Virus record (IMG/VR): IMGVR_UViG_3300045988_154040
Origin: a virus
Direction: 5' to 3' (one strand)
DNA length: 64,000 nt
The translations under genes were made by a program, and so were the position numbers. Shown here in pieces: positions 2,072 through 25,819 of this stretch; the stretch's first letter is position 1; every line of letters starts with the position of its first letter. Under the pieces are notes generated by a model. It ran no database searches and had not been told where the DNA came from. It saw only the letters and a list, made by a program, of their open reading frames with translations.

Positions 2072-2812
2072 TTATATCCATGCGTAACTGGATTTATTAC
2101 GTGGTAAATCATATAACCATTGTAAAATTTCTTTTGGTACATCTTCTTTTATCCAGCCATGACCATATTTACACCCACATACAGGACAAGATTTACCTAA
2201 TAATCCTAATTCATTTTCTGAGTAATTTATCCATCCTCTGGTTTTATGGTCTGTATTAGAGTGGCCTAAACAATTTTTCTCTGTATATTCATAACATTCA
2301 CTGTCTGAAAATTCACTGCCATTATAAGATTTTTTCTCAAATGGTAAATTGTAAATTTTTGTTTCTTCCAAAGTAGGAAAAAATGGCTCATGATTTGCTA
2401 AACATTTTAAAGCACGATTTTTTGCTTCGTTTTGTTTTTCTCTGGTTTCTCTAGTAAGTTTATAAGTTTTTATTTCAACTTTTTCACTTGCCATTTTGTC
2501 CCATCCTAATTTTTTCATATGGCTACAATAGGGGCGCATATCGTTTAAATGCCATTCATCCCATATGTCACAAAACTTCTGTAACATTTCAGGAGTCCAT
2601 TCTTTTGTTGGTACTCCTTTTCTTATTTCATCTACACACTGACCGCAACTTCCCCAAGAATCTCCATTTGATTTAGGACCAATTACACCGGTAATAGACA
2701 ATCGTCCATCTTGATATTCGATTTTACAAAACGAATTTACAGGCCGTTCTTTGCCATTGTAAATATATACTTCGTTAGTACATGGGTTAATAACTCTCTT
2801 AAAATTTTTCAT
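2072..2812 (-). CDS. hypothetical Cys/Trp-rich protein (246 aa)
   Basis: Long ORF with several CxxC-like pairs (SCGQC, CPVCGC); no family recognised. Confidence 0.6.
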   Translation of the reverse strand: MKNFKRVINPCTNEVYIYNGKERPVNSFCKIEYQDGRLSITGVIGPKSNGDSWGSCGQCVDEIRKGVPTKEWTPEMLQKFCDIWDEWHLNDMRPYCSHMKKLGWDKMASEKVEIKTYKLTRETREKQNEAKNRALKCLANHEPFFPTLEETKIYNLPFEKKSYNGSEFSDSECYEYTEKNCLGHSNTDHKTRGWINYSENELGLLGKSCPVCGCKYGHGWIKEDVPKEILQWLYDLPRNKSSYAWI

Positions 2813-2958
2813 TTTGATTTTCTCCTTTTCATATATGCGTTTATACGCTTTCTTTTCTCAATGCTAGAAGATATGACTTTACTTCGATATTCAGTTTTGA
2901 ATTAGATTTTTTAGAATGTTGCTTTAGAACTTTGTGTTACTTTGTTGTTGATAAATAC

Positions 2959-2987
2959 ATGATATCATATACATTTCTATATGTCAA
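2959..2987 (-). promoter_or_regulatory. sigma-A-type promoter TTGACA-17 bp-TATCAT (minus strand)
   Basis: Plus-strand tgtcaa at 2982-2987 and atgata at 2959-2964; lies upstream of the 2812 start. Confidence 0.55.
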
Positions 2988-3030
2988 TACTTTTTTTAAA
3001 ATTTATTTTTAAAATTTTTGAGTAAAAGAA

Positions 3031-3084
3031 AAGGGCTAAATATCAGCCCCTTCCACGAAAAAAGGTGGTACACATGCACCACCT
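3031..3084 (-). terminator. tandem rho-independent terminators (minus strand)
   Basis: Stem AGGTGGT/ACCACCT (3063-3084) is followed on the minus strand by a U-run (A6 at 3058-3063). A second hairpin GGGCT/AGCCC lies at 3032-3051. Both are just downstream of the stop at 3095. Confidence 0.6.
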
Positions 3085-3094
3085 ATAAAATTGA

Positions 3095-3382
3095 TTATTG
3101 TACGTTGCTGATTACATCCATGACAATATCATCTGCCGTATTGTCGGGAGTATAATTGTCATGCATTTTTAAGGTGACAGGCTCTCCCGGCAAAAAGTAA
3201 CAGTTGTCCACTGTTACCGTGTCGCCGTCCGCCGTCTGAAACGTGCATACAAGGTCACTATTGCAATCCAAGCAAACCGCCTGTAAAGTATAGCCTTGCG
3301 CCCATGTCTCCATCAATCCTGTTATAATCATGAATCCACCAACAATTCCCAAATTTACCATAAATTTTCTGAATTTTCTCAT
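3095..3382 (-). CDS. small secreted or membrane-anchored protein
   Basis: The N-terminus MRKFRKFMVNLGIVGGFMIITGLM looks like a signal peptide or TM anchor. Confidence 0.6.
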   Translation of the reverse strand: MRKFRKFMVNLGIVGGFMIITGLMETWAQGYTLQAVCLDCNSDLVCTFQTADGDTVTVDNCYFLPGEPVTLKMHDNYTPDNTADDIVMDVISNVQ

Positions 3383-3385
3383 TAC

Positions 3386-3715
3386 TTATTCCTCACTTTC
3401 ATCTTTTACATTTATTGCATTTATATATGCAATATTGGCAGTCTCTAAACTTCGTTGTGCAATCTCATTCAACAATTTTCTGTTTTTTAGTGAAATTAAA
3501 TGTAAATCTAACAATAAGTTAGATATCACATTAAAATTTTGGATATAAGGTTTACATTTTCCATAAATAGTATGTTTATCCTCACCAATTTTCCTGCCAT
3601 TTTGAGATACAATACAAATTACTCTCAAATCTTTTCTGATTTCTGCCAAAAGGCGTTTCTGTAACCAATTGGCAGAAATATTGACATTTTTTCTTTTCAT
3701 GTTGATTTTTTTCAT
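3386..3715 (-). CDS. hypothetical protein
   Basis: 109-aa ORF tightly packed with its neighbours. Confidence 0.5.
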   Translation of the reverse strand: MKKINMKRKNVNISANWLQKRLLAEIRKDLRVICIVSQNGRKIGEDKHTIYGKCKPYIQNFNVISNLLLDLHLISLKNRKLLNEIAQRSLETANIAYINAINVKDESEE

Positions 3716-3728
3716 TATTTATCCTCCA

Positions 3729-3911
3729 TCAATACCCCAACCATGAATATATACTATCTTTTTCTCCATTTATGAATACCTCACCGCCAACAACGGTGAT
3801 AGTATCATAATTATCAGAAAACGCATAGTGATAAGCTTTAATCGTATCATTTTTACAATCAAATGATACACCATGTCGAATTAACAGAAAACTTAACTCT
3901 TTTATAGACAT
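3729..3911 (-). CDS. hypothetical protein
   Basis: 60-aa ORF in the operon context. Confidence 0.45.
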   Translation of the reverse strand: MSIKELSFLLIRHGVSFDCKNDTIKAYHYAFSDNYDTITVVGGEVFINGEKDSIYSWLGY

Positions 3912-14629: not shown

Positions 14630-15218
14630 AAATATATTTACCTATCTGCTGTTCAAACAAATGATGATAAAATAATTTTGCTTTATCCTCTAAAGATTCA
14701 AGGTCTTTGTTATTGTATACTACAAAATCATAGCGATAATTCTCTACGTCTTTATCGGCATGATTAGAGGTAACAGTGGGAACATTGGGATTTTTTACAA
14801 GTAAAGTATGACAAGTATTAGAACCAAAATAATTTACATATCTTTGAATTTCTTTTGGTTCGCGTGAATGAACAAAAATAAGTCCATCACCATTATTAAA
14901 ATCATTAATATTTTTTATTGCCGTATTAATGTTTTTTATAGTTTCTTTGTAAGGTACATCATCCCAGCTAGAAAGTAAATCTTTTAAATCACTTAAAAAT
15001 TTACGATTACTTTCAATTTTTGAACCATCCCATCCAGCTATAATAGCTAGACTTTTAACTAAATTAACAGAATCAATATTACACATAATTCGTAGGGAAA
15101 TAAGGGTATTTTCATCTATTGCTGAATTATTTGAATCATATGCTAATTTTAAACATAATTTAGCAAAAGTATCTTTACCTTTTCCTCCACTACCATTGAT
15201 GATGATAACATGATACAT
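14622..15218 (-). CDS. P-loop NTPase, phage dNMP-kinase-like
   Basis: The N-terminal Walker A IIINGSGGKGKDTF resembles the GxSGxGKDT loop of phage deoxynucleotide monophosphate kinases. Confidence 0.5.
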   Translation of the reverse strand: MYHVIIINGSGGKGKDTFAKLCLKLAYDSNNSAIDENTLISLRIMCNIDSVNLVKSLAIIAGWDGSKIESNRKFLSDLKDLLSSWDDVPYKETIKNINTAIKNINDFNNGDGLIFVHSREPKEIQRYVNYFGSNTCHTLLVKNPNVPTVTSNHADKDVENYRYDFVVYNNKDLESLEDKAKLFYHHLFEQQIGKYIYD

Positions 15219-15249
15219 ATTTAACCTCCTTTTAGTCTATTTTATTTTA

Positions 15250-15278
15250 ATAATAACAGAATATAATATAAATGTCAA
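15250..15278 (-). promoter_or_regulatory. sigma-A-type promoter TTGACA-17 bp-TATTAT (minus strand)
   Basis: Plus-strand tgtcaa at 15273-15278 and ataata at 15250-15255; lies upstream of the 15218 start. Confidence 0.5.
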
Positions 15279-15436
15279 TATGTAATTTTTTATTATATAT
15301 TTTATATTATATGTATATTAATTAAATATATGTATAATAATTATATAATATTATAAAATATATAAATATAATATAATTAATAATAATTTATATTTAATTA
15401 ATATTGTTATTACTAATTCCCCAAAATATTTGTATT

Positions 15437-15475
15437 GTTATTTTAGTTTTTTTGCAAGCAAAAAAACCAAATAAC
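15437..15475. repeat. imperfect 18-19 bp hairpin
   Basis: GTTATTTTAGTTTTTTTGC-AA-GCAAAAAAACCAAATAAC. Confidence 0.75.
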
Positions 15476-15492
15476 GAAAACAAATATTTTTT

Positions 15493-15720
15493 CAATTGAT
15501 ATAATTAATATTTTTTATAAACATAAATTCACAAATTTCTTGGTTTTATATATAATAATAGTTATCTATAAACAATTACTAATATAAATTTATATAACTC
15601 TTTCCACTTCGTTACAAGAGTTATATAAATTTCTAAAGTAATTGTAATTATATCTAATTATTATTATATATAAAACAGAAATTTATAAATTTATATAAAA
15701 AATATTAATTATATCAATTG
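15493..15720. repeat. about 228-bp imperfect palindrome in the A/T-only divergent intergenic region
   Basis: Outer arms CAATTGATATAATTAATATTTTTT (15493-15516) and its exact reverse complement (15697-15720). Inner arms AAATTTATATAACTCTT (15586-15602) / AAGAGTTATATAAATTT (15616-15632). The sequence between the arms is largely mirrored. Confidence 0.85.
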
Positions 15721-15968
15721 GATAGGGGTATTTTTTATATAATAATTATATAATTAATAATATATAATATATATTATTTATATTATTAAATATATTATAT
15801 ATTATTATATTTTATAATAATATTTATATATTATATTTTATATATAGTATATAGTATTACCTCCGAATTTTTTCTTATACCGTTATTTTTTAAAAAATTT
15901 TTTATGTAATAAAAACAATTAATAAAATTAGTATAAAATGTCTTTATTTTTTAATATTAAAATATATC

Positions 15969-15997
15969 TTGACAAAATTGTATATATAATATATAAT
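15969..15997 (+). promoter_or_regulatory. consensus sigma-A promoter TTGACA-17 bp-TATAAT for the RNAP gene
   Basis: TTGACA at 15969-15974 and TATAAT at 15992-15997, 36 nt upstream of the ATG at 16034. Confidence 0.7.
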
Positions 15998-16033
15998 ACA
16001 ATCATCACAAAAAAATATTAAGAAAGGGACAAT

Positions 16034-19000
16034 ATGCAAAATAGTAGAAGAAAAATATTTAAGATTTCTACAGAGAGATTAGCTTCTAACAATTGGGATA
16101 TTAAGTTAGACCAAAAATTAGCTGTAAGGTTAGATGAATTAGTAGATTTATTTGATAATCAGTCTTTTAGGTTGTTGGATATTATTTCCAAAGCTTACAA
16201 ATCCAATCTTACAGATAAAGTGCTGGCAGTAGAAATATCTAAGAAAAAAGATTATGCCAGGGCTACTTCTCCAAAAGGCATTTATGTAAATGGTTTTAAT
16301 TTCCAATGGTTTGTAGGAACTACAGGAGGATTGAAAAATGAAACTATTTTATTTGTTCGTTCTGACCTTTTAGAAGAATTAGATAAAAGATGTGAATGCG
16401 GCAGAAAAAAAGATTATAAACTGGTTCCTGCAAAGTACGAAGCTTATAAATCTCTTACTTGTTCTGCATCTTTAGAAATTGTGGAACCTAGAGATGTACT
16501 TGTGGTTTCTGATTGTTTTGTTGATTTTTATGACAATGTAATCAATATAGATGATACAAACAATGACGAACCAGAAGTAACAATATTGGAAAATATTTTA
16601 CTTGAAAACAATGGTAGTGATGGTTTAAATTTATGTACACCAGAATATATGCAGAGAGTAGCAGAAAAACTTAATTTAGATTATATTCCTGCTGGTGGCT
16701 GTTTAAGAAATGCTTGGCTTAAGGGAATGTTGTATGTGTTTGATATTCTTGATTTTGCCGAGAAAATAGCTCAAACTTACGAAGTGAAAGATATTTGGGG
16801 ACATATTCATGATATTCGCAATGTGGATATGATTATTACAGAATCCAGTTTAAAGATTTGGGATAATTATGATAGTTGGGAAGATTATCATAGCAATTAT
16901 ATAAAAAATGGCTATCGTTTCGCCATGACTAAAGTTACACCTAAAGTTTTGGATGATGTAAGAGAAATAAATTATCAGTACTTACAATCTTACGAATTGA
17001 CAGATGAAGATATTAAAGAGTTGGCTAAACCTACTGTTGATTGGCTTAAGCAATCTTTGACTGGCGATTATGAACAAACTTTAAAATTTCTGGGAATAAG
17101 TGAAAAAACAAAGAGTAATGATTATGCACAAGCATTATATCTTAATCCAGAAATGATGAAAGACCCTTATGTAATTGACAGAATTAATAAAATGATAAAG
17201 AAAAAAATCAATAATGCTAAGATTGGTAAATTATTGGTTAATGGAAATTATCAGCTTGTAAGTGGCGACCCTTATGCTTTAATGCAACATGTTTTTGGGT
17301 TAGAAGTTACAGGTCTTTTAGAAGCAAAAGAAGTTTATTCCAAATATTGGAATGATAAAGAAGATGCAGAAGAATTAGTATGTTTTCGTAGTCCTATGAC
17401 AAGTCATAACAATATTCGTAAAATGAAAAGAATTAATAATGATACTGTGAATTATTGGTATCGTCATATGGATACTATATTTATTATTAACAACAAAGAT
17501 ACGTTTTGTATGGCTATGAACGGATGCGATTTTGATTAGTAATATAGTCCTTTGTTTTTTAACAAAGCAAGTGGTGAACCATCAGAGTATGGGTGTATAG
17601 ACTACTTTTTATTTATAAAAAAGGAATTGTAGGAAATGACAATTTGAGTCTGTGCTAACAGGGAAAGCCTAAACTTAATTGTAGATAAGCATGGTAATCC
17701 TGTGGGAAATAAAATAAAAATGTTTGCTTGTTGTAAAACAGAAAACAAACAAAAATATTTTTATTGGAAACCTTAAACGACTATCCCTTGGTCTGGTCGC
17801 AATATAAATACAGACAATAGGAGTAGGGCCATAGCGATATGGTGAGTGAAAACCTCTTAAATCGAAGTGCCACTGAACAAATATTGCAATTTAATATTTG
17901 TGAAAGATATAGTCTATTCCCTCCAAGCAATATTGGAGTTAAAGTACTGGGAAACCAGGGGTATTAAAGGGAGATGCAATTTATTCTACAAATAATTCAG
18001 TATTGTTAAGAAAATATAAGGAACTATTGGCTATTCAGTGTGTACAAAGAAAAGCAGAAAAACAAATTGTTACTAGGTCTATGATAAAAAAGAGCAATTA
18101 CAAAGGATTGGGAAATGGGGTTGGTAAAATTACCAACGATGTATCCAGTATGATTGATATTCTCTTTGGGTTACAAAAGGGTACAATTGAGTACGAGACA
18201 CTTTACAAACGTATTCTATGTGGTCAGCTATTTCAGCAAAATGAATTGGATTAACCTAAAAAATTGAGTCCAATTAAAAATCGGTGAACCTAGAAATCTA
18301 GGGTGTTTATTCTACGTGCAGGAGCGGAATTGTAGTAAATGACAATTTGAGAATAAGCTAACAGGGAAAATCTTAATAATAAAAATATTAATATAAAATA
18401 ATAAAAAAAGAGGTGAAAAATAAATGAAAAGAAAAGATTTAACAAATAATATTTATGGATGTTTAAAAGTATTATCTATAAATGAAGAAGAAACAAAACA
18501 GCAATTTAAAAAAATTATTATTAAGACAATCCTGTGCCAAGCTTAAAGAGAAATCTTTTTGAAGGTTAAACGACTAAGACATACGACCTAAGTTTTATAA
18601 AAAATATGGTTATGAAGTCTGTAGCTTTAAGGTGAAATTCCTTATTGCGAAGCGCCGATTGCCATTAGAATATTAATGGTAATGATATAGTCTATTCTCT
18701 ATGGTGACATAGAGTAGTAAAGAAATTAAAGGGTATTATTGCTAAAGATATGCCAAAGAATTGGTATATGAGGAATCATTGTAAAACAGAAATTGATAAA
18801 AAAATAGTTGCTGATAAAAAACCATATTATTTCATGTATAATTATCCTACTATAAAAAAAGATTATGATAATTATATTAAACATAGTAATAATAAATGTT
18901 TGATGTTATATGGATGTACCGTAGAAGAATTAGAAGCAAAATATTTGGAGAATCCAGAAATTTTTTCTGAGAACTGTAAAGAGTTTTTATATTGGTATCA

Positions 19001-19448
19001 TGCACAAATGCCAGTTAATTGTTCTCCATCTACAATGAATCGTTTATGTTGGTATATTGAATCTGAGTTTAATGGATATGTCACTCAATTAAAGAATCAA
19101 AATTTTGACTATACTTTTTTAAAGAATAATAAAGTTGTTCGATATCCAAAAGCAAAAAAAGAAGAAATTGAAAAATTAGAAAAAGAATATGTACGCAGAA
19201 TTAAAAACTTTAAAATAATTGCCAAAGAAAATAATTTATCTGCTGAAGAAGCTAATAAAAAGACAGAAGCATTACAACAAGAATTTAGAGATGAAGCAAT
19301 AAAAATTTGTTCTAATAAATGGCAATTGATGAATATAGTATTAGATTTATGCTATGGAAAGAATAAGAACAAATATTTTTGTTGGGCTGTTATTGGAGAT
19401 TTAATAATTGAAAAATTAAAAGAAGATGGAGAGAAAGAAAATGAATAA
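16034..19448 (+). CDS. YonO-like single-subunit (two-barrel) RNA polymerase in three exons: join(16034..17536,17970..18251,18732..19448), 833 aa
   Basis: Exon 1 ends ...AMNGCDFD and exon 2 begins GDAIYS.... The restored NGCDFDGD resembles the NADFDGD/DxDGD metal loop. The size is close to SPbeta YonO (recalled). HU-like genes lie downstream, as yonN lies next to yonO. Confidence 0.6.
17537..17969 (+). mobile_element. group I intron (no ORF) in the RNAP gene
   Basis: R-like TTAAACGACTATCCC at 17773-17787 and S-like AAGATATAGTC at 17904-17914 give P7 GACTAT/ATAGTC. P1 is GAT|TA (17534-17538) with TAGTC (17545-17549), including U.G at the splice site. The intron ends in G17969, and the junction restores the reading frame. 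Confidence 0.75.
18252..18731 (+). mobile_element. group I intron with a degenerate homing-endonuclease remnant in the RNAP gene
   Basis: P1 is AATTGGAT (18244-18251) with GTCCAATT (18268-18275). R-like TTAAACGACTA at 18566-18576 and S-like TGATATAGTC at 18683-18692. It shares the block GGAATTGTAG(G/T)AAATGACAATTTGAG...GCTAACAGGGAAA with intron 1. A 40-aa ORF at 18424-18546 (MKRKDLTNNIYGCLKVLSI...) looks like the N-terminus of a homing endonuclease. Confidence 0.7.
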
Positions 19449-20178
19449 AATAGTAGTAAATGAAAAAAAATATGTATTAGATGCTTTGAATGGCACTGAA
19501 AAACCTGATATTGGGTTTTATTCTTTTCTTAATTTGATATCTAAATATTATGCGGCTCAATGTGATACAGCAGAAGAAACAATTTACAATGTAGACGAAC
19601 AGATGAAGAAACTTTATAAAGAAGAATATTTAAAAGAAAAATGGTATGTGTATATTTCTGGAATATTCAAAAAGGTAAAAGAAGGAATTACCGGAATTAA
19701 TGATAGAGAAGATGTAGTGGTTTACACATGGGATATGTGTCAAGTGTTTAAAGGAGAAACCGACCAGGAGCGTAAGCTATTGTTTTCAGCCTATGTTATA
19801 GCGCATTACATGGGGTGTAACGGCTGGTTAAATACTAAGACTAGTAAAAGTATCGCTAACTGGTTTGAAATAGCTAATGTGGCTTGTACTGGTTCAGATA
19901 GATTTCTTCTTTTAGGAGAAATGAAAAAGAAAGGATTAATAGAAACTACAAAAAAGTGTGATAACTTAAATATAAGAGTAAATATGCTTTCTGAGTATTT
20001 TGGAGAAACCCCGGTATTTAGAATTACTGAGTTAGAAAATCTAGGTAACTTATTAATAGCCACATATAAGGATGGATATAAGCAGTGTAAGTGTGGCAGA
20101 TTAATAAAAATTAATTCAAATAGACAGACGATGTGTAGATTTTGTGCTTCAAAAATTGACCAAAAAAGAGAGGGGTAG
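19426..20178 (+). CDS. hypothetical protein with C-terminal zinc ribbon
   Basis: C-terminus CKCGRLIKINSNRQTMCRFC; the start overlaps the end of the RNAP gene. Confidence 0.6.
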   Translation: MERKKMNKIVVNEKKYVLDALNGTEKPDIGFYSFLNLISKYYAAQCDTAEETIYNVDEQMKKLYKEEYLKEKWYVYISGIFKKVKEGITGINDREDVVVYTWDMCQVFKGETDQERKLLFSAYVIAHYMGCNGWLNTKTSKSIANWFEIANVACTGSDRFLLLGEMKKKGLIETTKKCDNLNIRVNMLSEYFGETPVFRITELENLGNLLIATYKDGYKQCKCGRLIKINSNRQTMCRFCASKIDQKREG

Positions 20179-20381
20179 AAGAAATAAGTACGAAAAAATA
20201 GGAATTAGAGGGTGTTAAAAAAGATAATAAAAACTATTGAAAAAATAGTCATAAAAATTCAAATGACTTTGATTTGTTATAAGGGAGTAACAAAGAAACC
20301 AAAAGTAAATTGAGGATGTAAACTCGATAAAGAGTTGCAATCCTTAACAGAATAAAAAGAATTTAAAGGAGAATTAAAATT

Positions 20382-20735
20382 ATGGCAAAGAAAGTAATCA
20401 AGGTAACTGACATGACTTCCGCAGAACTGGTAAAGGCTATTGCGGCAAAATCTGGTGCATCTCAGGTGCAGACAAAGGCGGTTCTGAGCGCTATGGGCGA
20501 AGTTTGTAGAGAGTGTGCCGCCGCAGGTAAGAAGTTCAATCTGTTTGGCCTGGGAAAGATGGGATTTGCTCAGATTAATGGTAAGCCAGAGAGAAATGGT
20601 GTTATCAATCCTAGAACCGGAGAGAAGGGCCTGCTTCCTGAAACTCCTTCTTATACCAAGCCTGTATTTAAGGTTTCTAAGAGTTTAGTGGATGAAATTA
20701 AGGAATCTACCAAGGGCCGCCCATTTGTAAAGTAA
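20382..20735 (+). CDS. HU/IHF-family DNA-binding protein
   Basis: ELVKAIAAKSGASQVQTKAVLSAMGEV...FNLFGLGKMGF...RNGVINPRTGEKGLLPETPSYTKPVFKVSKSL follows the HU pattern, including the RNPxTGE arm. Local GC is visibly higher than in the surrounding sequence. Confidence 0.85.
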   Translation: MAKKVIKVTDMTSAELVKAIAAKSGASQVQTKAVLSAMGEVCRECAAAGKKFNLFGLGKMGFAQINGKPERNGVINPRTGEKGLLPETPSYTKPVFKVSKSLVDEIKESTKGRPFVK

Positions 20736-20794
20736 GTTTCAACATTTTTTTAAAAATAAATTTTAATTAATGTTGTGAGATTGGAGATTACCTT

Positions 20795-21295
20795 ATGGCA
20801 AGGACAGGAGCATCCAAAGCGAATGCGTTGACTTTGAGAGAAATCTCTGACCTTATAGCCGTTTCAGTAAAAAAACAGGGAAAAACTGTTACTGCTGAAA
20901 CGGCTAAACTTTGCTATTTGGCTTTAATTGAAATTATAGCTGACGAACTTAAACGTAATGGAAAGTTCGTTATCACTAACATAGGTAGTTTGGAAACATA
21001 TATGTTTGGTGGATTTATGCGAAACAGTTATAATGTTCAGACTAAAGAACATAAATTAGAAAAAGTGCCAGAAACAGTTGTAGTAAAGTTTAATCCGTCT
21101 GATTATATAAAGGCATATCTCAATAATAGAGAAATACCTTTAGGAATGAGGCGGAGAAGCAAAGAAGTTGAAAAAAAGGCCAGAGTAAGCAAAACAAAAA
21201 AAGAATTACTTAAAAAAGAAATGGCTGTAAAAAAGAAGAAAAAATACGAAAAAATTGTTCAACCTATAGAAATTGATGTGGAAGAGGAAGATTAA
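20795..21295 (+). CDS. second HU/IHF-like protein with a Lys-rich C-terminal tail
   Basis: LREISDLIAVS...AKLCYLALIEIIADELKRNGKFVITNIGSLE... is followed by a KKKKKYEK-type basic tail. Confidence 0.65.
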   Translation: MARTGASKANALTLREISDLIAVSVKKQGKTVTAETAKLCYLALIEIIADELKRNGKFVITNIGSLETYMFGGFMRNSYNVQTKEHKLEKVPETVVVKFNPSDYIKAYLNNREIPLGMRRRSKEVEKKARVSKTKKELLKKEMAVKKKKKYEKIVQPIEIDVEEED

Positions 21296-21317
21296 TTTAG
21301 TAGTATAAACATAAAAG

Positions 21318-21420
21318 TGAAGGTAAAATTAAGTTTGATAATCGAGTGTGGGTATAATGAAGATTCCGTTAGGAAAAGAGCCACTTTAAGATTACAAACT
21401 TAATTTTACCTTCATTTTTT
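21318..21420 (+). terminator. 20-bp perfect stem, 57-nt loop, T6 tract (terminator or structured RNA)
   Basis: TGAAGGTAAAATTAAGTTTG (21318-21337) pairs with CAAACTTAATTTTACCTTCA (21395-21414), followed by TTTTTT. Confidence 0.5.
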
Positions 21421-21453
21421 GACATTTTAATTTTAATACATAAATAAAAAAGA

Positions 21454-22362
21454 ATGGAAGTGATTGCGATGGCCACAGTTGTTAAAAAAATTCGTCCCAT
21501 AACTGATTCTTATTGTATTAGGTGCAATAGACAGTATCCAATAGAAAATTTTTACAAAAGTGATAATATTCATCACACTACAGGAGTAATGCCTTATTGT
21601 AAAAATTGTACTAAGGAAATGTATCAGGACAATTTAAAAAGATTTAAAGATATAAGAAGTGCTTTATGGGTGACATGCAGTGAAGTTGGAATACCCTTTA
21701 TGGAAAAAGTCTATGATAATCTTATGGAAAAAGTTAAAAAAGCTCGTGATGAAAAAGTTTTAACCAGTACATATAACTATTGGGGAAATTTTATTTCTAG
21801 TTATATGGGATTAAAGAAAAAAACAGATAAATGGGATAGTTTTGGAGTAACAGATGTAGATAAATCCGAAGCTATTTTAGATATTAGTCAAGAAAAATTA
21901 AGAAAAGAAAAACTCAAACAGTTTATTTTAGACTGGGGAGAACAAGATGAAGATGATTATGCGTATCTTGAATATCGGTGGGATTTTTATACAGAAGATA
22001 TAAACCTTACTCCTGCTCAGGAGAGTTTGTATAGAAAATTATGTATTTCAGAGTTAGATTATCGTAAAGCAAAAGAAAATGAAGAAAGCGGAAAAGAACA
22101 GCAAGAATCTATTCTTAAGCTTATGAAAACATTAAAAATTGATAATTTTACTCAAAAGAAAGAAAAAACTCTTACAGAACAAATGCTGGAAAAACAGATT
22201 TGGGAGATTGAGAACACCACTCCGGCTGAATGTGAAGATTTGAATAAATACAAAGATTTTTGTAATATTGAATCTGATTGGTTTAAGTATATTGTTTCTG
22301 CTGTTAAGAATTTGATTGCAGGAACGAAAGAATATCCTCTAATTCCCAGAAAACGTGATTAG
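21454..22362 (+). CDS. zinc-finger protein; candidate small terminase by position only
   Basis: CIRCNRQ...CKNCTKE at the N-terminus; lies immediately upstream of TerL. Confidence 0.4.
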   Translation: MEVIAMATVVKKIRPITDSYCIRCNRQYPIENFYKSDNIHHTTGVMPYCKNCTKEMYQDNLKRFKDIRSALWVTCSEVGIPFMEKVYDNLMEKVKKARDEKVLTSTYNYWGNFISSYMGLKKKTDKWDSFGVTDVDKSEAILDISQEKLRKEKLKQFILDWGEQDEDDYAYLEYRWDFYTEDINLTPAQESLYRKLCISELDYRKAKENEESGKEQQESILKLMKTLKIDNFTQKKEKTLTEQMLEKQIWEIENTTPAECEDLNKYKDFCNIESDWFKYIVSAVKNLIAGTKEYPLIPRKRD

Positions 22363-22376
22363 TAGGAGGATAAATT

Positions 22377-25300
22377 ATGAATGAAAATGAAGAAATAGAA
22401 TTTAAACAACCTACTATAACAGAATTAATTGAAGAACGTAAAAGAAAAAATGAAGCAAAGAAAAAGAAAAATAAAAAAATACCTTATGAACAAAGAAGAA
22501 AAAATATTATAGAATGGACTACTTTTTATAGACGTAATTGGAATCTTTATGCAGTGCATAGATTAATGTTGTCTCTATACCCTTTTCAGCATATTATGCT
22601 TTATTTAATGGGTATAAGTAGTACATTTTTTGCTATATGTAGTCGAGGTTTATCAAAAACCTTTATTGTGGCATTAGGTGCGTTAATTCATGGATTGCTT
22701 TATCCTTATGCAGAAGTGGTTATTACTTCTTCTACTATTCCACAGGCCAAGAAAATGGTAGATAAGAAAATGGAGAATGAATTGTGTAAAAAACTTTCTC
22801 CATTGTTACAATATTATTATGAACATGAAGATATTAAATTTTCATATAGTGATAATGAGATAAAAGTTGAAATTAAACCAACAAATTCAACTATTTTAGT
22901 ACTTCCTTGTTTGGACAGTGCTAGAGGTGGAAACATTAAGTTGCACAACTCGCCTCTCTGGTTGGTGACAATCAGTAAAAATAAATTGGGAAAGAAACCT
23001 GGAAACCTGAAATGGTAATCAGAATGGAAGGATACGTGTAATAGCGTATTCACATGCAGAGCGTAGACATTGAACCTGTTTGAATCAGAATATAATATGT
23101 CCAAGAGTTCCCAACCCTTTAAATATAAAGGTGAAAAGGTACGCCGACCTTGCTAGAAATACAATAGCAAGAACTATGGGATAAAAAGCCCATAGGATAA
23201 CATTTGGAACGTGCAACTTTTCTTATATATGAAGAATGTAGACTTTTGAAAAAGACTATTATAGATAGTGTTTTTCAGAAAATGGCCCATCCACGTCAAG
23301 CTAAATTTTTAACTTTATCAGAATATCAAGATGAAGATGGAAAACCTTTATCTCGATGGTTAGAGGAATGTAAATCTGTTTATATTACTTCTGCTAGATT
23401 CAAGATAGAATGGTTTTGGACGGAATTTAAAAAAGTAGTTCAACAATGTATGATATCTAATAAGCATAAATATAATTTCTTTGCAGGAAATATATTTTTA
23501 GCAATATTATATGGTTTAAAAACATGGCAAGATTATTTTCATGCCAAAGAATTTGATAGTGATATAGACCATAGAACAGAGGATTTAAATGAAATGATAG
23601 GGGAAGCAGATGGAGCTTTCTTTTCTATGGAATCTTTTAAAAAGAACCAAATTATACGTAATGCTTTTAAACCTCCTACTATATTGGATTTATATTCTAA
23701 TGTAGATTTAGGAAACAGACCCAAGAAAGATGGAGAAAAACGATTAATATTCATTGACTATGCTTTTGCGAATACTACATCAAATTCTAAAAATGATAAC
23801 AGTGTTATTGGCTGTATGTCTGTTATTTTTAGAGATGATGGGAAAACCTTAAGGGAAGTAGATTATATAGGTACTCACCCCGCAGGAGACAGTATAGGAT
23901 TTAACTTGAAAATTAGAGAATTTTTCTTTGATTATCAAGCTGACTATATTGTATTGGATTAATTCTGAGGTCCACTTTTATGGTGACATAAAATGAATAA
24001 ATGTGTTGAATTGCTGGAAACCCCTAAAGCCACATGAACCACAACGTAAGTATGAAATAAGACTAAGCGTGATGGTGACGAAAGTAGAAAAAATCATGTG
24101 GATGGCATAAGGTTAAATCCTAAGTGCTTTAAAATGGGCAATCAGCCGCCAAGCTCTGAATAGGAGAAGGTTCAACGACTATCCCGCAAGGGAGTACACT
24201 GCAAGCGATTGGCAGTGGAAGTGGCACACATCTTATGAAATTAAGATGAAGATATAGTCTGCTCTATATGGAAACATATAGTATCTAACGTGTAGCGGCG
24301 TTTTCTTAACTTATAAAAAGTAAATAAGACAGAGGGTAGCTCCCTTTTCTTGTACTGCAATACAGGATTATTATTTACTTTTTATCATATCTTTTTGCAG
24401 AAAGGTTTAAGGTAGAAATTATGAAAATTTGGGAAGTAAATTCTAGTAAGCGTTTTAATTTTGGTTGTATTTATTTATGGACTAATCTTATTAATGGTAA
24501 ACATTATGTTGGACAGACAGTTAATTTTTATCAACGTATTCAACGATATAAGAAAGGTTTAATTAATTCTTATATGAAAGAAGATATTGATAAATATGGT
24601 ATGGAAAATTTTAAAGTTGAAATATTGGAAAGGATAGAAGATATTTCAAATGAAGATTTCCTTACTGAAAGAGAGCAATATTGGATGGATTATTATCAGT
24701 CTTATGATTTAGAAAAAGGCTATAATATATTTGATGTTGCTGGCAATGTCTGTTATTTAAAACGTAGTGATACTATTAAAGAAAGATTTTGTGGAGAAGG
24801 AAATGGAATGTATGGTAAACATCATTCTGATGAATGGAAACAAAATCATTCTGATTGCGTAAAAGGTTTGTGGAAAAAAGAAGAATATAGAAAAGTTCAG
24901 ACAGAAAGGATGCAAGGAGAAAATAATCCTATGTATGGGGTATCTTTAGATGGTGAGAAAAATGGAATGTATGGTAAACATCATTCTGATGAAACCAAAA
25001 GAAAGATAGCTGAAAGTAAAATAGGGAAAACTCATGCACCTACTCATTTTAAAAGAGTGAGATGTGTTGAAACTGGAAAAATCTATAATAGTCAGAGTGA
25101 AGCCGCACAAGAGTATGGCATAACTCCGGCCGCAATCAGTTTAGTTTGTAAAGGTAAAAATAAGACAGCCAAGAAAATGCATTGGGAATTTGTAGACTAA
25201 TCTCAAAAATAGTAATAGAAACAATACAAGACTCAGAAATGGCGGTGAAGTAAATTTTAATGACCTTACTACAATTCTTGAACATCCTCAAAGAGATGAA

Positions 25301-25819
25301 AAACATTGGAATAGTCATGGATTTACTGTTTGTCATGAAAACAAATTGCATGTACTTCCAAAAGCTAAGATTGAAGATTTGAAAAGTAGGGCTGTTGACC
25401 AACAAGCAATTCCTGCTATTATTCCTATTCAGGGTACAGAGGAATTAAACAGTAATATGTGGTTAGACTTACAAAAAGCTCTTAAAGGTGAATATATTCA
25501 TTTCTTAATTGATGAACTTAATTTGGAAACTTTGATGGAAGAAGATTTAAGTTATTTTGATTTAAGTAGCGAAGAAAAAGCAATTATTAAATTGCCTTAT
25601 GTTCATACTCTGGAAATGATAGGTGAAGCTATAAGTCTTAATCAAACCTGGAACGGAGGTAAGGTTAAACTTCATGAACCTACCACAACAGATGCTACAA
25701 AGGATAAAATAGTAGCAGTTAGTTATTGTAACTATATAGCTACTTTACTGGAAAATAAATATGCTATACAAAATCAAAATGATACTAGTATGATTGATAT
25801 AGAACAATTGGTATTTTAA
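22377..25819 (+). CDS. terL: terminase large subunit in three exons: join(22377..22928,23207..23959,25232..25819)
   Basis: Walker A-like AICSRGLSKTF. Junction 1 restores SARG|ERATFLIYEE (Walker B-like). The nuclease domain has IFIDYAF and ADYIVLD|LRNGGEVNFNDL. Confidence 0.85.
22929..23206 (+). mobile_element. short ORF-less group I-like intron in terL
   Basis: P1 is AGAGGT (22923-22928) with GCCTCT (22952-22957), with U.G at the splice site. Candidate P7 is GACAT/ATGTC (about 23066/23095). Terminal hairpins are CTTGCTA..TAGCAAG and CTATGGG..CCCATAG. The intron ends in G23206, and the frame is restored only by this junction. Confidence 0.55.
23960..25231 (+). mobile_element. group I intron carrying a GIY-YIG homing endonuclease gene in terL
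   Basis: The 5' end resembles the T4 td intron as I recall it: TTGGAT|TAATTCTGAGGTCCAC. P1 is TGGAT/GTCCA (23970-23974). P10 is CTGAG (23965-23969) with exon 3 CTCAG (25232-25236). R is TTCAACGACTATCCC at 24171-24185 and S is AAGATATAGTC at 24248-24258. The ORF lies 3' of the core. Confidence 0.8.
24421..25200 (+). CDS. GIY-YIG homing endonuclease (I-TevI-like, NUMOD3 repeats, C-terminal HTH)
   Basis: GCIYLWTNLINGKHYVGQT...R...YKKG. Repeated NGMYGKHHSDE(W/T)K motifs. C-terminus IYNSQSEAAQEYGITPAAISLVCKGK. Confidence 0.9.
   Translation: MKIWEVNSSKRFNFGCIYLWTNLINGKHYVGQTVNFYQRIQRYKKGLINSYMKEDIDKYGMENFKVEILERIEDISNEDFLTEREQYWMDYYQSYDLEKGYNIFDVAGNVCYLKRSDTIKERFCGEGNGMYGKHHSDEWKQNHSDCVKGLWKKEEYRKVQTERMQGENNPMYGVSLDGEKNGMYGKHHSDETKRKIAESKIGKTHAPTHFKRVRCVETGKIYNSQSEAAQEYGITPAAISLVCKGKNKTAKKMHWEFVD

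What the first reader, a model, noticed from the sequence alone, without database searches (positions are those of the whole stretch)
16034..19448. YonO-like single-subunit RNA polymerase whose DFD|GD catalytic loop is split by a group I intron
ORF 16034-17539 stops at TAG right after ...FCMAMNGCDFD. 433 nt later, after G17969, the in-phase frame reads GDAIYSTNNSVLLRKYK..., continuous with track ORF 18003-18254. Joining 17536|17970 gives NGCDFDGD. This matches the invariant metal-binding (NA)DFDGD / DxDGD loop of two-double-psi-beta-barrel RNAPs (beta-prime, QDE-1-type RdRPs, SPbeta YonO). A second interruption (18252-18731) joins ...FQQNELD|GIIAKDMPKNWY.... The spliced product is 833 aa, about the size I recall for YonO. 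Two HU-like genes follow, reminiscent of yonN-yonO. The gene sits behind a perfect TTGACA-17-TATAAT promoter, so host RNAP would make a phage RNAP. The same phage also encodes a sigma factor (404-991).
Basis: partly seen in the sequence, partly recalled or inferred. Interest (0 to 1): 0.8.

Follow-up and report, generated by a model that had tools for sequence, protein, structure and literature searches.

The report
Intron-split YonO-type phage RNA polymerase gene
A phage of the gut bacterium Enterocloster bolteae carries a single-chain, YonO-type RNA polymerase gene cut into three pieces by two self-splicing group I introns, one of them inside the enzyme's metal-binding catalytic loop; this is a known kind of selfish-intron invasion, but it appears common and unreported in this polymerase family, where it makes databases list the fragments as separate unknown proteins.

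Summary
The finding holds, with one correction. The window is 99.7% identical to Enterocloster phage CB473P3. ORF 16034-17539 stops just after ...NGCDFD. An intron-free allele in phage PMBT24 fixes the first junction at exactly 17536|17970, restoring DFDGD. The second interruption is real, but the intron ends at G18722, not G18731. Exon 3 therefore starts at 18723, the conserved KLK is kept, and the product is 836 aa. The spliced protein matches SPbeta YonO (BLASTP E 5e-30; DFDGD aligns with YonO DNDGD). It models with pLDDT 90.5, and its best solved-structure matches are the two-barrel RdRPs QDE-1 and RDR2. Both inserts have group I hallmarks: U before the 5' splice site paired with G in a guide sequence, terminal G, a P7/J8-7 core, covarying helices, and presence/absence among relatives. 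Relatives also carry an HNH endonuclease gene in intron 2, reduced here to a 40-codon remnant. All three exons are under purifying selection (dN/dS 0.13-0.17). Related introns sit at the same two sites in other lineages, including Clostridium phage c-st and yonO of SPbeta-like phage Goe14. About one in six YonO-family clusters sampled ends inside the catalytic loop. This is a new member of a known kind, of moderate interest. Splicing and polymerase activity are inferred, not shown.

The parts
15969..15997 (+). Sigma-70-type promoter-like site, TTGACA-17 nt-TATAAT, 36 nt upstream of the ATG
   Evidence: 12/12 match and the only perfect one in 15200-21500. The same hexamers and spacing occur upstream of the gene in PMBT24, CB473P1, CB457P1, L013 and the 78%-identity lineage L008/L009. 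Function is inferred.
16022..16029 (+). Shine-Dalgarno-like GAAAGGGA before the start codon
   Evidence: Read directly from the sequence.
16034..17536 (+). Exon 1, codons 1-501. Covers the N-terminal region, the first (beta-like) barrel and the second barrel up to ...NGCDFD, that is, the first two catalytic Asp residues.
   Evidence: ORF listing. blastn breakpoint against intron-free PMBT24. Aligns to YonO residues 86-537. PHROG 25339, a family of N-terminal fragments, has a profile that ends exactly here.
17537..17969 (+). Intron 1: a 433-nt group I intron with no ORF. It starts TAG TAA (in-frame stops) and ends in G17969.
   Evidence: Absent from PMBT24, CB473P1 and CB457P2; present in CB473P3, CB457P1, L017 and L008-L011. 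Rfam RF00028 match at 17602-17938, 39 bits, E 4.5e-8, below the gathering score of 50. The P7-P7.2 region is 75% identical to the lysK intron of Staphylococcus phage K.
17545..17549 (+). Intron 1 internal guide UAGUC. It pairs with exon GAU plus intron UA to form P1, with a U.G wobble at the splice site.
   Evidence: Read from the sequence. Only 3 exon base pairs here, against 5 (GGGAU/GUCCC) in lineage L008, whose exon encodes DWD.
17570..17576 (+). Intron 1 P3 5' strand, AGUGGUG
   Evidence: Pairs with UGCCACU at 17868-17874. This 7-bp long-range helix is 93% paired in 36 non-redundant family members, against 68% when partners are shuffled.
17595..17655 (+). Intron 1 extra domain (helix X, GUAUAGACU/AGUCUGUGC, enclosing hairpins) between the P3 5' strand and J3/4-P4 (UAA-CAGGG)
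   Evidence: The 9-bp helix is 99% paired in 36 family members, against 65% when shuffled, with up to 5 pair types per position. RNAalifold and pair counts agree.
17779..17783 (+). Intron 1 P7 5' strand GACUA, preceded by J6/7 AAAC
   Evidence: Pairs with UAGUC at 17910-17914 within GAUAUAGUC (J8/7-P7). Matches the Rfam consensus. Coordinates.
17868..17874 (+). Intron 1 P3 3' strand, UGCCACU
17910..17914 (+). Intron 1 P7 3' strand, UAGUC
17970..18251 (+). Exon 2, codons 502-595. Begins GD, completing DFDGD, and ends ...QQNELD at the end of a predicted long helix (574-597).
   Evidence: blastn against PMBT24, 91.8% identity over exactly 282 nt. Model secondary structure. No start codon or ribosome-binding site at its 5' end.
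18252..18722 (+). Intron 2: a 471-nt group I intron of the same family. It starts TAA and ends in G18722.
   Evidence: Absent from PMBT24. Present, with or without an intact endonuclease ORF, in CB473P1, CB457P1/P2, L008-L010, L014, L016, L017 and L079/L081/L087. Rfam partial match at 18661-18712, 27 bits. 72% column identity to intron 1.
18268..18275 (+). Intron 2 internal guide GUCCAAUU. It pairs with exon AAUUGGAU (8-bp P1, U.G at the splice site).
   Evidence: Read from the sequence. Covaries with the exon in lineage L079 (exon CUUGGAU, guide GUUCAAG).
18424..18546 (+). 40-codon remnant of the intron 2 homing endonuclease gene, in the P5 loop
   Evidence: The N-terminus MKRKDLTNNIYGCLKV matches the 250-aa intron ORFs of CB473P1 and L008 (MRRKDLSNNIYGCLQV...). 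Of these, the L008 ORF carries Pfam HNH_3 and AP2, while CB473P1 gave only a sub-threshold AP2 match. About 660 nt of the ORF is missing in the window.
18723..19448 (+). Exon 3, codons 596-836 plus TAA. Begins KLKGIIAKD.
   Evidence: Homology to PMBT24. K596, K598 and G599 are conserved in the family. PHROG 35857, a family of C-terminal fragments, spans residues 522-825.
19426..20178 (+). Overlapping downstream ORF (250 aa) with a C-terminal CxxC...CxxC motif. Probable partner of the polymerase.
   Evidence: Homologous to Clostridium phage c-st CST177 (E 5e-8), which its record annotates as similar to the C-terminal part of YonO. Weak direct match to YonO 779-820 (E 0.007). No Pfam family.
20382..20735 (+). 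HU-like DNA-binding protein gene 1
   Evidence: Pfam PF00216, E 2.9e-14. An HU-like gene also lies downstream of yonO in SPbeta (yonN), Goe14 (hup) and L008-L010.
20795..21295 (+). HU-like DNA-binding protein gene 2
   Evidence: Pfam PF00216, E 1.4e-7.

Best explanation
Positions 16034-19448 hold one gene for an 836-aa, 98-kDa single-chain two-barrel RNA polymerase of the YonO family. Two related mobile group I introns (17537-17969 and 18252-18722) interrupt it.

Proposed mechanism:
1. Host RNA polymerase probably starts at the consensus promoter at 15969-15997 (inferred).
2. On unspliced RNA, ribosomes stop at the TAG directly after the 5' splice site. This yields a 501-aa fragment that has only two of the three catalytic Asp residues.
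3. Each intron folds into a group I ribozyme. P1 forms between the last exon bases and an internal guide, with a U.G wobble at the cleavage site. The introns also have a P3/P7 pseudoknot, the P4-P6 domain, P7.1/P7.2, P8, P9 and a terminal G.
4. Each intron excises itself by two guanosine-initiated transesterifications (inferred from anatomy).
5. Exon ligation recreates the codons for DFD|GD and ELD|KLK.
6. By analogy with SPbeta YonO, the protein then works as a DNA-dependent RNA polymerase. It would transcribe the late (packaging and structural) genes that start just downstream, after the HU-like genes (inferred).

The introns are selfish homing elements that target the most conserved codons of the gene. 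Intron 2 carries an HNH-AP2 endonuclease gene in relatives and only a remnant here. Intron 1 has no ORF and lies 282 nt away, close enough that it could in principle spread by co-conversion.
For: Gene identity:
- tblastn and BLASTP to YonO.
- 1,489 homologues, mostly uninterrupted proteins of about 836 aa.
- Invariant D499, D501, D503, R452-S453-P454 and K230-G231 in 30 homologues.
- AlphaFold pLDDT 90.5. Foldseek to QDE-1/RDR2, E 1e-15.
- Pfam RdRP on homologue P0026.

Introns:
- Exact breakpoints against intron-free PMBT24.
- Presence/absence polymorphism at both sites among phages with over 90% identity.
- Splice-site U and terminal G in every allele.
- P1 covaries with the exon.
- Rfam core matches.
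- 94.8% of cells paired on 54 pairs against 81.8% shuffled and 32-47% slid, with 25 pairs changed on both sides.
- P3 and helix X covary in 36 family members.
- Homing endonuclease ORFs lie in the P5 loop of relatives.
- Similarity to the phage K lysK intron, whose record joins the flanking exons.

The gene is in use despite the stops:
- dN/dS is 0.16-0.18 in each of the three exons between the window and L008, both of which carry both introns. It is 0.13 overall against PMBT24.
- Exons 2 and 3 have no start codon or ribosome-binding site of their own at their 5' ends.

Generality:
- The same site 1 is occupied in Clostridium phage c-st (DMD|GD).
- The same site 2 is occupied in yonO of SPbeta-like phage Goe14 (..FTID|FAKT..).
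- 18 to about 27 of 150 representative clusters end inside the catalytic loop. One was checked at DNA level.

Late-gene role of YonO: PMC5467207.
Against: - No RNA or protein data were available, so splicing and activity are inferred.
- Neither intron reaches the Rfam gathering score: 39 and 27 bits against 50. The whole-window gathering scan reported only the terminase intron. The short intron 2 homologue in L079 gave no Rfam match at all.
- P1 of intron 1 has only three exon base pairs in this phage, because the exon encodes DFD (UUUGAU) rather than the family-typical DWD (UGGGAU) that would pair with the guide GUCC. Splicing could be inefficient.
- The query itself has no Pfam hit and no sequence-level PDB hit.
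- Template specificity (DNA or RNA) cannot be read from sequence. PMBT24 annotates its homologue as an RNA-dependent RNA polymerase.
- Promoter-like sites are as frequent as chance in this AT-rich region (39 found, 43 expected). Only the perfect score and its conservation single this one out.
Confidence: 0.88

Rival explanations
1. The gene is a decaying pseudogene. Insertions broke it, and the fragments are no longer expressed as one polymerase.
For: Public records annotate the pieces as separate hypothetical proteins. Intron 2 has lost its endonuclease gene. P1 of intron 1 is weak.
Against: dN/dS is 0.13-0.18 in all three exons, including between two alleles that both carry both introns. All reading frames are intact and the insert boundaries are precise. 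The phage is a plaque-forming isolate whose relatives keep the gene. Intron core elements are conserved and covary.
Confidence: 0.03
2. There is no splicing. The three ORFs are translated separately and assemble into a split polymerase, as some jumbo-phage RNA polymerase subunits do.
For: Split two-barrel RNA polymerases exist in phiKZ-like phages (PMC2919709). ORFs 18003-18254 and 18750-19448 are open.
Against: The break would fall inside the five-residue metal-binding loop. The first in-frame starts of exons 2 and 3 (TTG 18003, ATG 18750) lie 11 and 9 codons inside conserved sequence and lack Shine-Dalgarno sites. The inserts have ribozyme anatomy, and they are absent from near-identical phages that encode one continuous protein.
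Confidence: 0.03
3. The spliced protein is an RNA-dependent RNA polymerase, as annotated in PMBT24 and suggested by its closest solved structures, rather than a DNA-dependent transcriptase.
For: The best structural matches are QDE-1 and RDR2. Pfam places homologues in RdRP PF05183. PMBT24 and MAG records use that name.
Against: [quoted passage not shown] Sequence similarity to YonO is direct (E 5e-30), whereas similarity to QDE-1 is seen only at fold level. The host phage has a dsDNA genome, and the gene heads the late gene cluster with the same HU-like neighbour as yonO.
Confidence: 0.06
4. One or both introns are splicing-impaired in this particular phage, so active polymerase is made at low level or only with help from a host or phage factor.
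For: P1 of intron 1 has 3 exon base pairs, whereas the guide still carries CC that would pair with a DWD (UGGGAU) exon. Intron 2 has suffered a deletion of about 660 nt in its P5 loop. Rfam scores are sub-threshold.
Against: P1 is extended by two intron base pairs (GAUUA/UAGUC). The P5 stem flanking the deletion is intact at 12 bp (read). The low Rfam scores are explained by the family-wide extra domain that displaces P3 in the model. The same allele is found on 79 contigs (P0023).
Confidence: 0.1

Closest known systems
YonO of Bacillus prophage SPbeta (single-chain DNA-dependent RNA polymerase; Forrest et al. 2017, PMC5467207)
   Same: Same family. BLASTP E 5e-30, 25% identity over 553 residues. 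The catalytic loop aligns (DFDGD against DNDGD) and the R-S-P motif is shared. Sizes are close (836 against 839 aa). An HU-like gene lies downstream, and the gene sits at the head of the late or structural gene cluster.
   Different: SPbeta yonO is uninterrupted. Only about 25% identity. The host is a virulent Enterocloster phage of about 100 kb rather than a temperate Bacillus prophage. Activity has not been tested here.
yonO of SPbeta-like phage vB_BsuS-Goe14 (annotated yonO_2 / ORF / yonO_1); probably also phi3T and SPbetaL3-L8
   Same: An intron with the same characteristic 5' domain interrupts yonO after residue 625 (...ENNFTID|FAKTLF...). This position is homologous to window site 2 (...QQNELD|KLKGII...). 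It has U before the splice site and a terminal G.
   Different: The Goe14 intron carries a GIY-YIG/NUMOD3 endonuclease ORF, not HNH-AP2. There is no intron at the catalytic loop. The record does not annotate an intron.
Clostridium phage c-st CST179/CST178 (annotated as the N-terminal part of a YonO homologue and a hypothetical protein)
   Same: The YonO homologue (38% identity) is broken at the same codon boundary, DMD|GD, by a 317-nt insert with group I features. Rfam gives 25 bits, E 1.4e-4. The 3' end GUUAAAGUAC-hairpin-GGGGUA..G is almost the same as in window intron 1.
   Different: The 5' half of the c-st intron is conventional, with P3 directly before J3/4, and lacks the extra domain. 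No second intron is present.
Group I intron with HNH endonuclease gp210 in the RNA polymerase beta-like subunit gene of jumbo phage PhiPA3 (Birkholz et al. 2024, PMC11620839)
   Same: A mobile group I intron sits in a two-barrel RNA polymerase gene of a phage, inserted right after conserved catalytic-site Asp residues. It encodes an HNH endonuclease that targets the intron-free allele of a related phage.
   Different: That intron is in a multisubunit polymerase and in the beta-like barrel. Here the polymerase is single-chain and the intron is in the beta-prime-like DxDGD loop. The endonuclease gene is degenerate in this window. No competition phenotype was tested.
IA2-type phage group I introns (Staphylococcus phage K lysK intron, Twort, T4 td/nrdB)
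   Same: P7.1/P7.2 lie between P7 and P3. The J6/7-P7 (AAACGACUA) and J8/7-P7 (GAUAUAGUC) cores are shared. The endonuclease ORF sits in a peripheral loop, stop codons follow the 5' splice site directly, and a GAAA loop is present in P9.1. Identity to the lysK intron is 75% over P7-P7.2.
   Different: The window introns and at least 36 relatives have a hairpin plus a 9-bp helix between the P3 5' strand and J3/4. The phage K intron lacks this. Rfam RF00028 therefore scores them below threshold.
QDE-1 / RDR2 cellular RNA-dependent RNA polymerases (PDB 2J7N, 5FSW, 7W82, 7ROZ)
   Same: Best structural matches of the model (E 7e-16 to 8e-12, TM 0.43-0.55). Both have a single chain with two double-psi beta-barrels and a DxDGD loop.
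   Different: 11-13% sequence identity. They are eukaryotic enzymes that copy RNA in silencing pathways. No sequence-level match was found.

Membership tests
YonO-family single-chain two-barrel RNA polymerase | Significant sequence similarity to YonO across both barrel regions | tested here: met
   BLASTP E 5e-30, query 30-562 against YonO 86-602. tblastn E 4e-17 to SPBc2 yonO.
YonO-family single-chain two-barrel RNA polymerase | Metal-binding Asp triad D-x-D-G-D in one continuous loop | tested here: met
   Met only after joining 17536|17970 (NGCDFDGD). It aligns with YonO DNDGD. D499, D501 and D503 are invariant in 30 homologues. The YonO triad is essential for catalysis (PMC5467207).
YonO-family single-chain two-barrel RNA polymerase | Two double-psi beta-barrel fold in a single chain of about 100 kDa | tested here: met
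   Predicted model with pLDDT 90.5. Foldseek probability 1.00 to QDE-1/RDR2, then weak matches to beta-prime. 97.9 kDa. This is a prediction, not an experimental structure.
YonO-family single-chain two-barrel RNA polymerase | Curated family model (Pfam RdRP PF05183) passed | tested here: inconclusive
   The query has no Pfam hit at E<=1. Homologue P0026 (52% identity) scores 38.1 bits against a cutoff of 23.8. Several other homologues carry a precomputed PF05183 hit.
YonO-family single-chain two-barrel RNA polymerase | DNA-templated RNA synthesis and transcription of phage late genes | not testable with these tools
   Inferred from YonO (PMC5467207) and from the gene's position upstream of the HU-like, terminase and portal genes.
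Group I self-splicing intron | 5' splice site after a U that forms a U.G wobble in P1 with an internal guide sequence | tested here: met
   Intron 1: GAU|UA with UAGUC. Intron 2: AAUUGGAU with GUCCAAUU. The exon-guide pairing covaries in L008, L079, c-st, Goe14 and L215.
Group I self-splicing intron | Intron ends in G (omega G) directly before the 3' exon | tested here: met
   G17969 and G18722, and every homologous allele.
Group I self-splicing intron | Conserved catalytic core (P3-P8 and P4-P6 domains, P7 guanosine-binding helix, J8/7), supported by covariation | tested here: met
   P4/J4-5/P6/J6-7/P7/J8-7 match the Rfam consensus. 54 pairs are 94.8% paired, with 25 changed on both sides; shuffles give 81.8% and slid controls 32-47%. 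P3 is 93% paired in 36 members against 68% shuffled. P7 is invariant, so it is uninformative for covariation.
Group I self-splicing intron | Reaches the curated score of Rfam RF00028 | tested here: not met
   39.0 bits (intron 1) and 27.2 bits (partial, intron 2) against a gathering score of 50. Nothing was reported for these in the whole-window gathering scan. No match for L079. The model forces P3 next to J3/4, whereas this family has an extra domain there.
Group I self-splicing intron | Mobile element: precise presence/absence among alleles and a homing endonuclease ORF in a peripheral loop | tested here: met
   Intron-free (PMBT24), intron 2 only (CB473P1, CB457P2) and both (window, CB457P1, L008). 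A 250-aa ORF in the P5 loop of relatives carries Pfam HNH_3 and AP2 in L008; the CB473P1 (L003) copy gave only a sub-threshold AP2 match.
Group I self-splicing intron | Guanosine-dependent self-splicing and exon ligation | not testable with these tools
   No RNA data. Indirect support comes from purifying selection on all exons of intron-bearing alleles.

The most novel reading that the evidence does not exclude
The two introns may belong to a large, structurally distinct and apparently undescribed subclass of phage group I introns. In this subclass a hairpin plus a 9-bp helix, itself carrying a further hairpin with a conserved AGGAAAUG loop, is inserted between the 5' strand of P3 and J3/4, where canonical group I introns have no helix. 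At least 36 distinct members were seen in IMG/VR and GenBank phages of Staphylococcus, Bacillus, Clostridium and Enterocloster. Current covariance models under-detect them. They have made the Mg-binding loop of YonO-type polymerases a major homing hot spot, with two insertion points 6 nt apart and about one in six gene clusters affected.
Probability: 0.3. Interest if true: 0.55.

Novelty: new member of a known kind. Interest (0 to 1): 0.45.

Why it matters
- **Annotation.** In CB473P3 and many metagenomic phages the polymerase is recorded as three to five hypothetical proteins. Two PHROG families (25339, 35857) and about 12-18% of the representative clusters sampled look like exon fragments. 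Recognising the introns restores a key transcription enzyme.
- **Spread of the family.** YonO-type polymerases are found in more than 1,000 clusters. They appear to be a standard late-transcription device of phages of gut Firmicutes, not a Bacillus curiosity.
- **Conserved sites.** The introns mark the two most constrained sites of the enzyme: the Asp triad and the ELD-KxKG motif at the end of a long helix. The second site is uncharacterised and worth mutating.
- **Phage competition.** Intron-encoded endonucleases aimed at a rival's polymerase gene can decide the outcome of co-infection, as shown for PhiPA3 against PhiKZ. The mix of alleles with and without introns among Enterocloster phages from sewage is a natural system in which to test this.
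- **Detection.** The intron family escapes Rfam's threshold, so phage introns of this type are probably under-counted.

Tried and rejected
- **Rfam gathering scan of the whole window.** It found only the terminase intron at 23951-24281, not the two polymerase introns. A permissive scan of 26 kb of related loci found nothing, and the short L079 intron gave no match.
- **Rfam's placement of P3** (GUCUGUG next to J3/4, pairing with CACUG). Rejected because that strand instead forms the strongly covarying local helix X. The true long-range partner of the 3' strand is NNNNGUG upstream.
Rejected in favour of 18722|18723.
- **Direct Pfam and PDB sequence searches with the query and with a 30-sequence profile.** No useful hits. 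Fold comparison was needed.
- **P10 pairing as a way to choose the intron 2 3' site.** Neither candidate pairs convincingly, so I did not use it.
- **Literature searches.** 'YonO' with 'intron', 'YonO-like', the PMBT24 genome paper, two SPbeta reviews, 'P3.1', and 'between P3 and P4'. None mentions introns in YonO-type genes or the extra intron domain. The library lacks most subscription-journal papers, so absence is weak evidence.
- **Other mechanisms considered and dismissed.** An intein does not fit, because the inserts contain stops in all frames and leave no continuous ORF. A group II intron does not fit at 433-471 nt with no domain V or reverse transcriptase. Translational bypass would not span 433 nt.

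Full report
**Source of the window**

Positions 15000-22000 are 99.7% identical to Enterocloster phage CB473P3 (OP172757). They are 90-96% identical to five other Enterocloster bolteae phages, including PMBT24. The window has 31% G+C. In CB473P3 the region is annotated as a string of hypothetical proteins.

**Checking the observation**

- ORF 16034-17539 (501 codons) ends ...FCMAMNGCDFD and then TAG. After G17969 the same frame reads GDAIYSTNNSVLLRKYK....
- PMBT24 has one uninterrupted 831-codon gene at this locus, annotated 'RNA-dependent RNA polymerase'. blastn of the window against it gives three blocks whose ends fall at exactly 17536|17970 and 18251|18723.
- At the first junction PMBT24 reads GATTTTGAT|GGCGATGCT (DFD|GD), with no base to spare on either side.
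- At the second junction PMBT24 reads ...NELD-KLK-GIIAKD. The window has AAA TTA AAG at 18723-18731, preceded by G18722.
- In an alignment of 30 homologues, K598 and G599 are invariant and K596 is at least 90% conserved.
- All other alleles carrying this intron end ...GTAGTAAAG|AAAYTAAAR-GG.
The product is 836 aa, 97.9 kDa.

**What the protein is**

- The spliced product has no Pfam hit and no sequence-level PDB hit, either alone or as a profile.
- It matches three PHROGs of unknown function. One is full length (8308). One is an N-terminal family whose profile ends exactly at residue 501 (25339). One is a C-terminal family (35857).
- tblastn against GenBank phages finds yonO of SPbeta and its relatives, Clostridium phage c-st, Bacillus phage BUCT082 and others.
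- Pairwise BLASTP with SPbeta YonO (839 aa) gives E 5e-30 over 553 residues. CDFDGD aligns with FDNDGD, FRSP with LRSP, and RNAWLKGML with RLPWVKGLL.
- The YonO Asp triad is required for catalysis. [quoted passage not shown]
- A word-indexed database search returned 1,489 homologues, mostly 830-860 aa and uninterrupted. An exhaustive search with exon 1 found 1,088 representative clusters.
- An AlphaFold model built on 30 homologues has pLDDT 90.5 and pTM 0.83.
- Its best solved-structure matches are maize and Arabidopsis RDR2 and fungal QDE-1 (E 7e-16 to 8e-12, TM 0.43-0.55). Bacterial beta-prime subunits follow at the margin of significance.
- In the viral structure library the best hits are phage proteins named 'RNA-dependent RNA polymerase'.
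- A homologue with 52% identity passes Pfam RdRP PF05183.
- Two HU-like genes follow downstream (PF00216). The same arrangement is seen with yonN after yonO and hup in Goe14.
- The sigma-70-like gene at 404-991 is real but lies on the minus strand.

The YonO-family assignment is well supported. DNA-dependent activity and a late-gene role are inferred.

**What the inserts are**

- Both start with in-frame stop codons (TAG TAA; TAA), follow a U and end in G.
- Intron 2 has an 8-bp P1 (exon AAUUGGAU with guide GUCCAAUU at 18268-18275). In the 65%-identity lineage L079 both the exon (CUUGGAU) and the guide (GUUCAAG) have changed together.
- Intron 1 has a weaker P1 (GAU|UA with UAGUC). The guide still carries CC, which would pair with the family-typical DWD exon, as it does in lineage L008 (GGGAU/GUCCC).
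- A permissive Rfam scan aligns intron 1 to RF00028 over the whole model (39 bits, E 4.5e-8). It aligns the P8-P9 part of intron 2 (27 bits, E 1.6e-4). Both are below the gathering score of 50.
- The two introns are paralogous, with 72% column identity.
- The P7-P7.1-P7.2 region of intron 1 is 75% identical to the lysK intron of Staphylococcus phage K. That record joins the flanking exons and annotates an endonuclease between them.
- On seven intron sequences from four lineages, a structure of 54 pairs is 94.8% paired, and 25 pairs are changed on both sides. Shuffles give 81.8% and slid controls 32-47%.
- In relatives, the P5 loop of intron 2 holds a 250-aa ORF. The L008 copy has Pfam HNH_3 and AP2 domains; the CB473P1 copy gave only a sub-threshold AP2 match.
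- The window keeps the ribosome-binding site and the first 25 or so codons of that ORF (18424-18546). About 660 nt is missing, while the 12-bp P5 stem is intact.
- Intron 1 has no ORF in any lineage.

**Evidence that the gene is used**

- Between the window and L008, which both carry both introns and share 78% protein identity, dN/dS is 0.17, 0.16 and 0.18 in exons 1, 2 and 3. Against PMBT24 it is 0.13 overall.
- Exons 2 and 3 have no start codon or Shine-Dalgarno site at their 5' ends.
- Selection on sequence downstream of in-frame stops is hard to explain without exon ligation.
- The promoter-like site at 15969-15997 is the only 12/12 match in the region. It is conserved in relatives, although weaker matches are no more frequent than chance.

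**Distribution**

- Among 80 IMG/VR loci encoding relatives, 74 are uninterrupted and 6 are interrupted at site 1 and/or site 2.
- Site 1 (DxD|GD) is also occupied in Clostridium phage c-st. There CST179 ends ...NGMDMD and the frame resumes GDAVISTNNEVLL after a 317-nt insert with group I features.
- Site 2 is occupied in yonO itself in SPbeta-like phage Goe14, annotated as yonO_2 / ORF / yonO_1. The intron follows residue 625 (...ENNFTID|FAKTLF...) and has the same 5' domain, but carries a GIY-YIG/NUMOD3 ORF.
- The same 5' domain lies next to yonO in phi3T, SPbetaL3-L8 and BUCT083.
- Of the 150 best representative clusters, 65 show a complete D-x-D-[GSA]-D loop. 13 end right after the first Asp. 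5 end at or a few codons after the second Asp. About 9 more end in variant motifs at the same place.
- One first-Asp case was checked at DNA level...LNGAD|TAG..., a 313-nt intron of the same family, then FDSDAVISTNNK.
- The catalytic loop is therefore a recurrent target with two insertion points 6 nt apart. The window is one instance.

**An unexpected feature of the intron family**

- RNAalifold, followed by an anchored count on 36 non-redundant members, shows a 7-bp long-range helix (NNNNGUG with YGCNNNN). By topology this is P3. It is 93% paired, against 68% when partners are shuffled.
- The same analysis shows a 9-bp local helix that ends directly before UAA-CAGGG (J3/4-P4). It is 99% paired, against 65% when shuffled.
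- A hairpin plus this helix therefore sit between the P3 5' strand and J3/4.
- The phage K lysK intron and the c-st intron lack this domain.
- The Rfam model pairs the wrong strand there, which explains the low scores.
- I found no description of this arrangement in the papers I could search. That library is incomplete, so I cannot say it is new.

**Comparison with what is known**

- Mobile group I introns in the most conserved codons of essential phage genes are classic, for example in DNA polymerase, ribonucleotide reductase, thymidylate synthase and endolysin genes.
- A close analogue is the intron carrying an HNH endonuclease in the beta-like RNA polymerase subunit gene of PhiPA3. It lies just after conserved Asp residues, and its endonuclease sabotages PhiKZ during co-infection (PMC11620839).
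- YonO-like proteins in Firmicutes phages, including c-st, have been listed before (PMC2919709, PMC7824862). I found no mention that their genes are intron-split.
- The PMBT24 genome paper does not discuss the polymerase gene or introns.

**Verdict**

The observation and interpretation are correct, with a 9-nt correction. The feature is a new member of a known kind. It has practical value for annotation and for studying phage competition, and it yields a side lead on intron structure. Splicing, polymerase activity and promoter use remain inferred.

Noticed in passing
window 22386-25816: The large terminase gene is also split into three exons relative to PMBT24 TerL: residues 6-186 at 22386-22928, 187-437 at 23207-23959, and 438-632 at 25232-25816. 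The second insert contains the only Rfam-threshold group I intron of the window (23951-24281, 96 bits) and a GIY-YIG/NUMOD3 endonuclease ORF (24421-25200). The first insert (about 22929-23206, about 278 nt) has no Rfam match and was not characterised.
   Followed up: partly
window 17570-17655 and 18280-18358; loci L093-L198, L215: Members of the intron family have a hairpin plus a 9-bp covarying helix inserted between the 5' strand of P3 and J3/4. P3 itself is the long-range helix NNNNGUG/YGCNNNN. This was seen in 36 non-redundant members. Rfam RF00028 mis-aligns this region. I could not find the arrangement described.
   Followed up: partly
L214 (Bacillus phage vB_BsuS-Goe14, OL580764) 2567-3853; also phi3T, SPbetaL3-L8, BUCT083: The yonO gene of SPbeta-like phages carries an intron of the same family, with a GIY-YIG/NUMOD3/HTH ORF, after YonO residue 625. 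The records annotate yonO_1 and yonO_2 (or nothing) and no intron.
   Followed up: partly
L215 5160-5472 (JGI 3300041561 contig) and 13-17 representative clusters (P0122, P0124, P0141 and others): There is a second insertion point in the catalytic loop, after the first Asp (..NGAD|FDSD..), 6 nt upstream of the window's site. The intron is of the same family and has a canonical 11-nt GAAA-tetraloop receptor (CCUAAG/UAUGG) in P5.
   Followed up: partly
window 19426-20178: A 250-aa ORF overlaps the polymerase stop codon. It is homologous to c-st CST177 (E 5e-8), and its C-terminal CxxC...CxxC motif weakly resembles YonO 779-820. It may be a detached equivalent of the YonO C-terminal zinc ribbon or a polymerase cofactor.
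   Followed up: partly
window 16034-19448 against L001 (PMBT24): Synonymous divergence jumps from dS 0.07 in exon 1 to 0.37 in exon 2 and 0.45 in exon 3. This mosaic boundary coincides with the intron sites and is consistent with homing-associated co-conversion or recombination.
   Followed up: no
L004 / L017 (CB457P1 and an IMG/VR relative), intron 2 P5 loop: In these alleles the endonuclease ORF is replaced by a G+C-richer insert of about 190 nt (TTGTAGATATAAATTTGACTATCATCTCAGTACCGTAGGACATACGGG...) of unknown nature. It is absent from the window.
   Followed up: no
window 15219-16033: This is an 815-nt, very AT-rich intergenic region between divergently oriented gene blocks (minus-strand genes up to 15218, plus-strand genes from 16034). 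It holds several strong promoter-like sites on both strands (11/12 matches at 15528-15556 on the plus strand and 15278-15250 on the minus strand). The deposited CB473P3 genome is numbered from within this region.
   Followed up: no
PHROG families 25339 and 35857; BFVD A0A8S5SEF1 (563 aa) and A0A8S5PL59 (382 aa): Public protein families and structure entries appear to consist of exon-1 and exon-2/3 fragments of intron-split YonO-type genes, treated as independent proteins of unknown function.
   Followed up: partly
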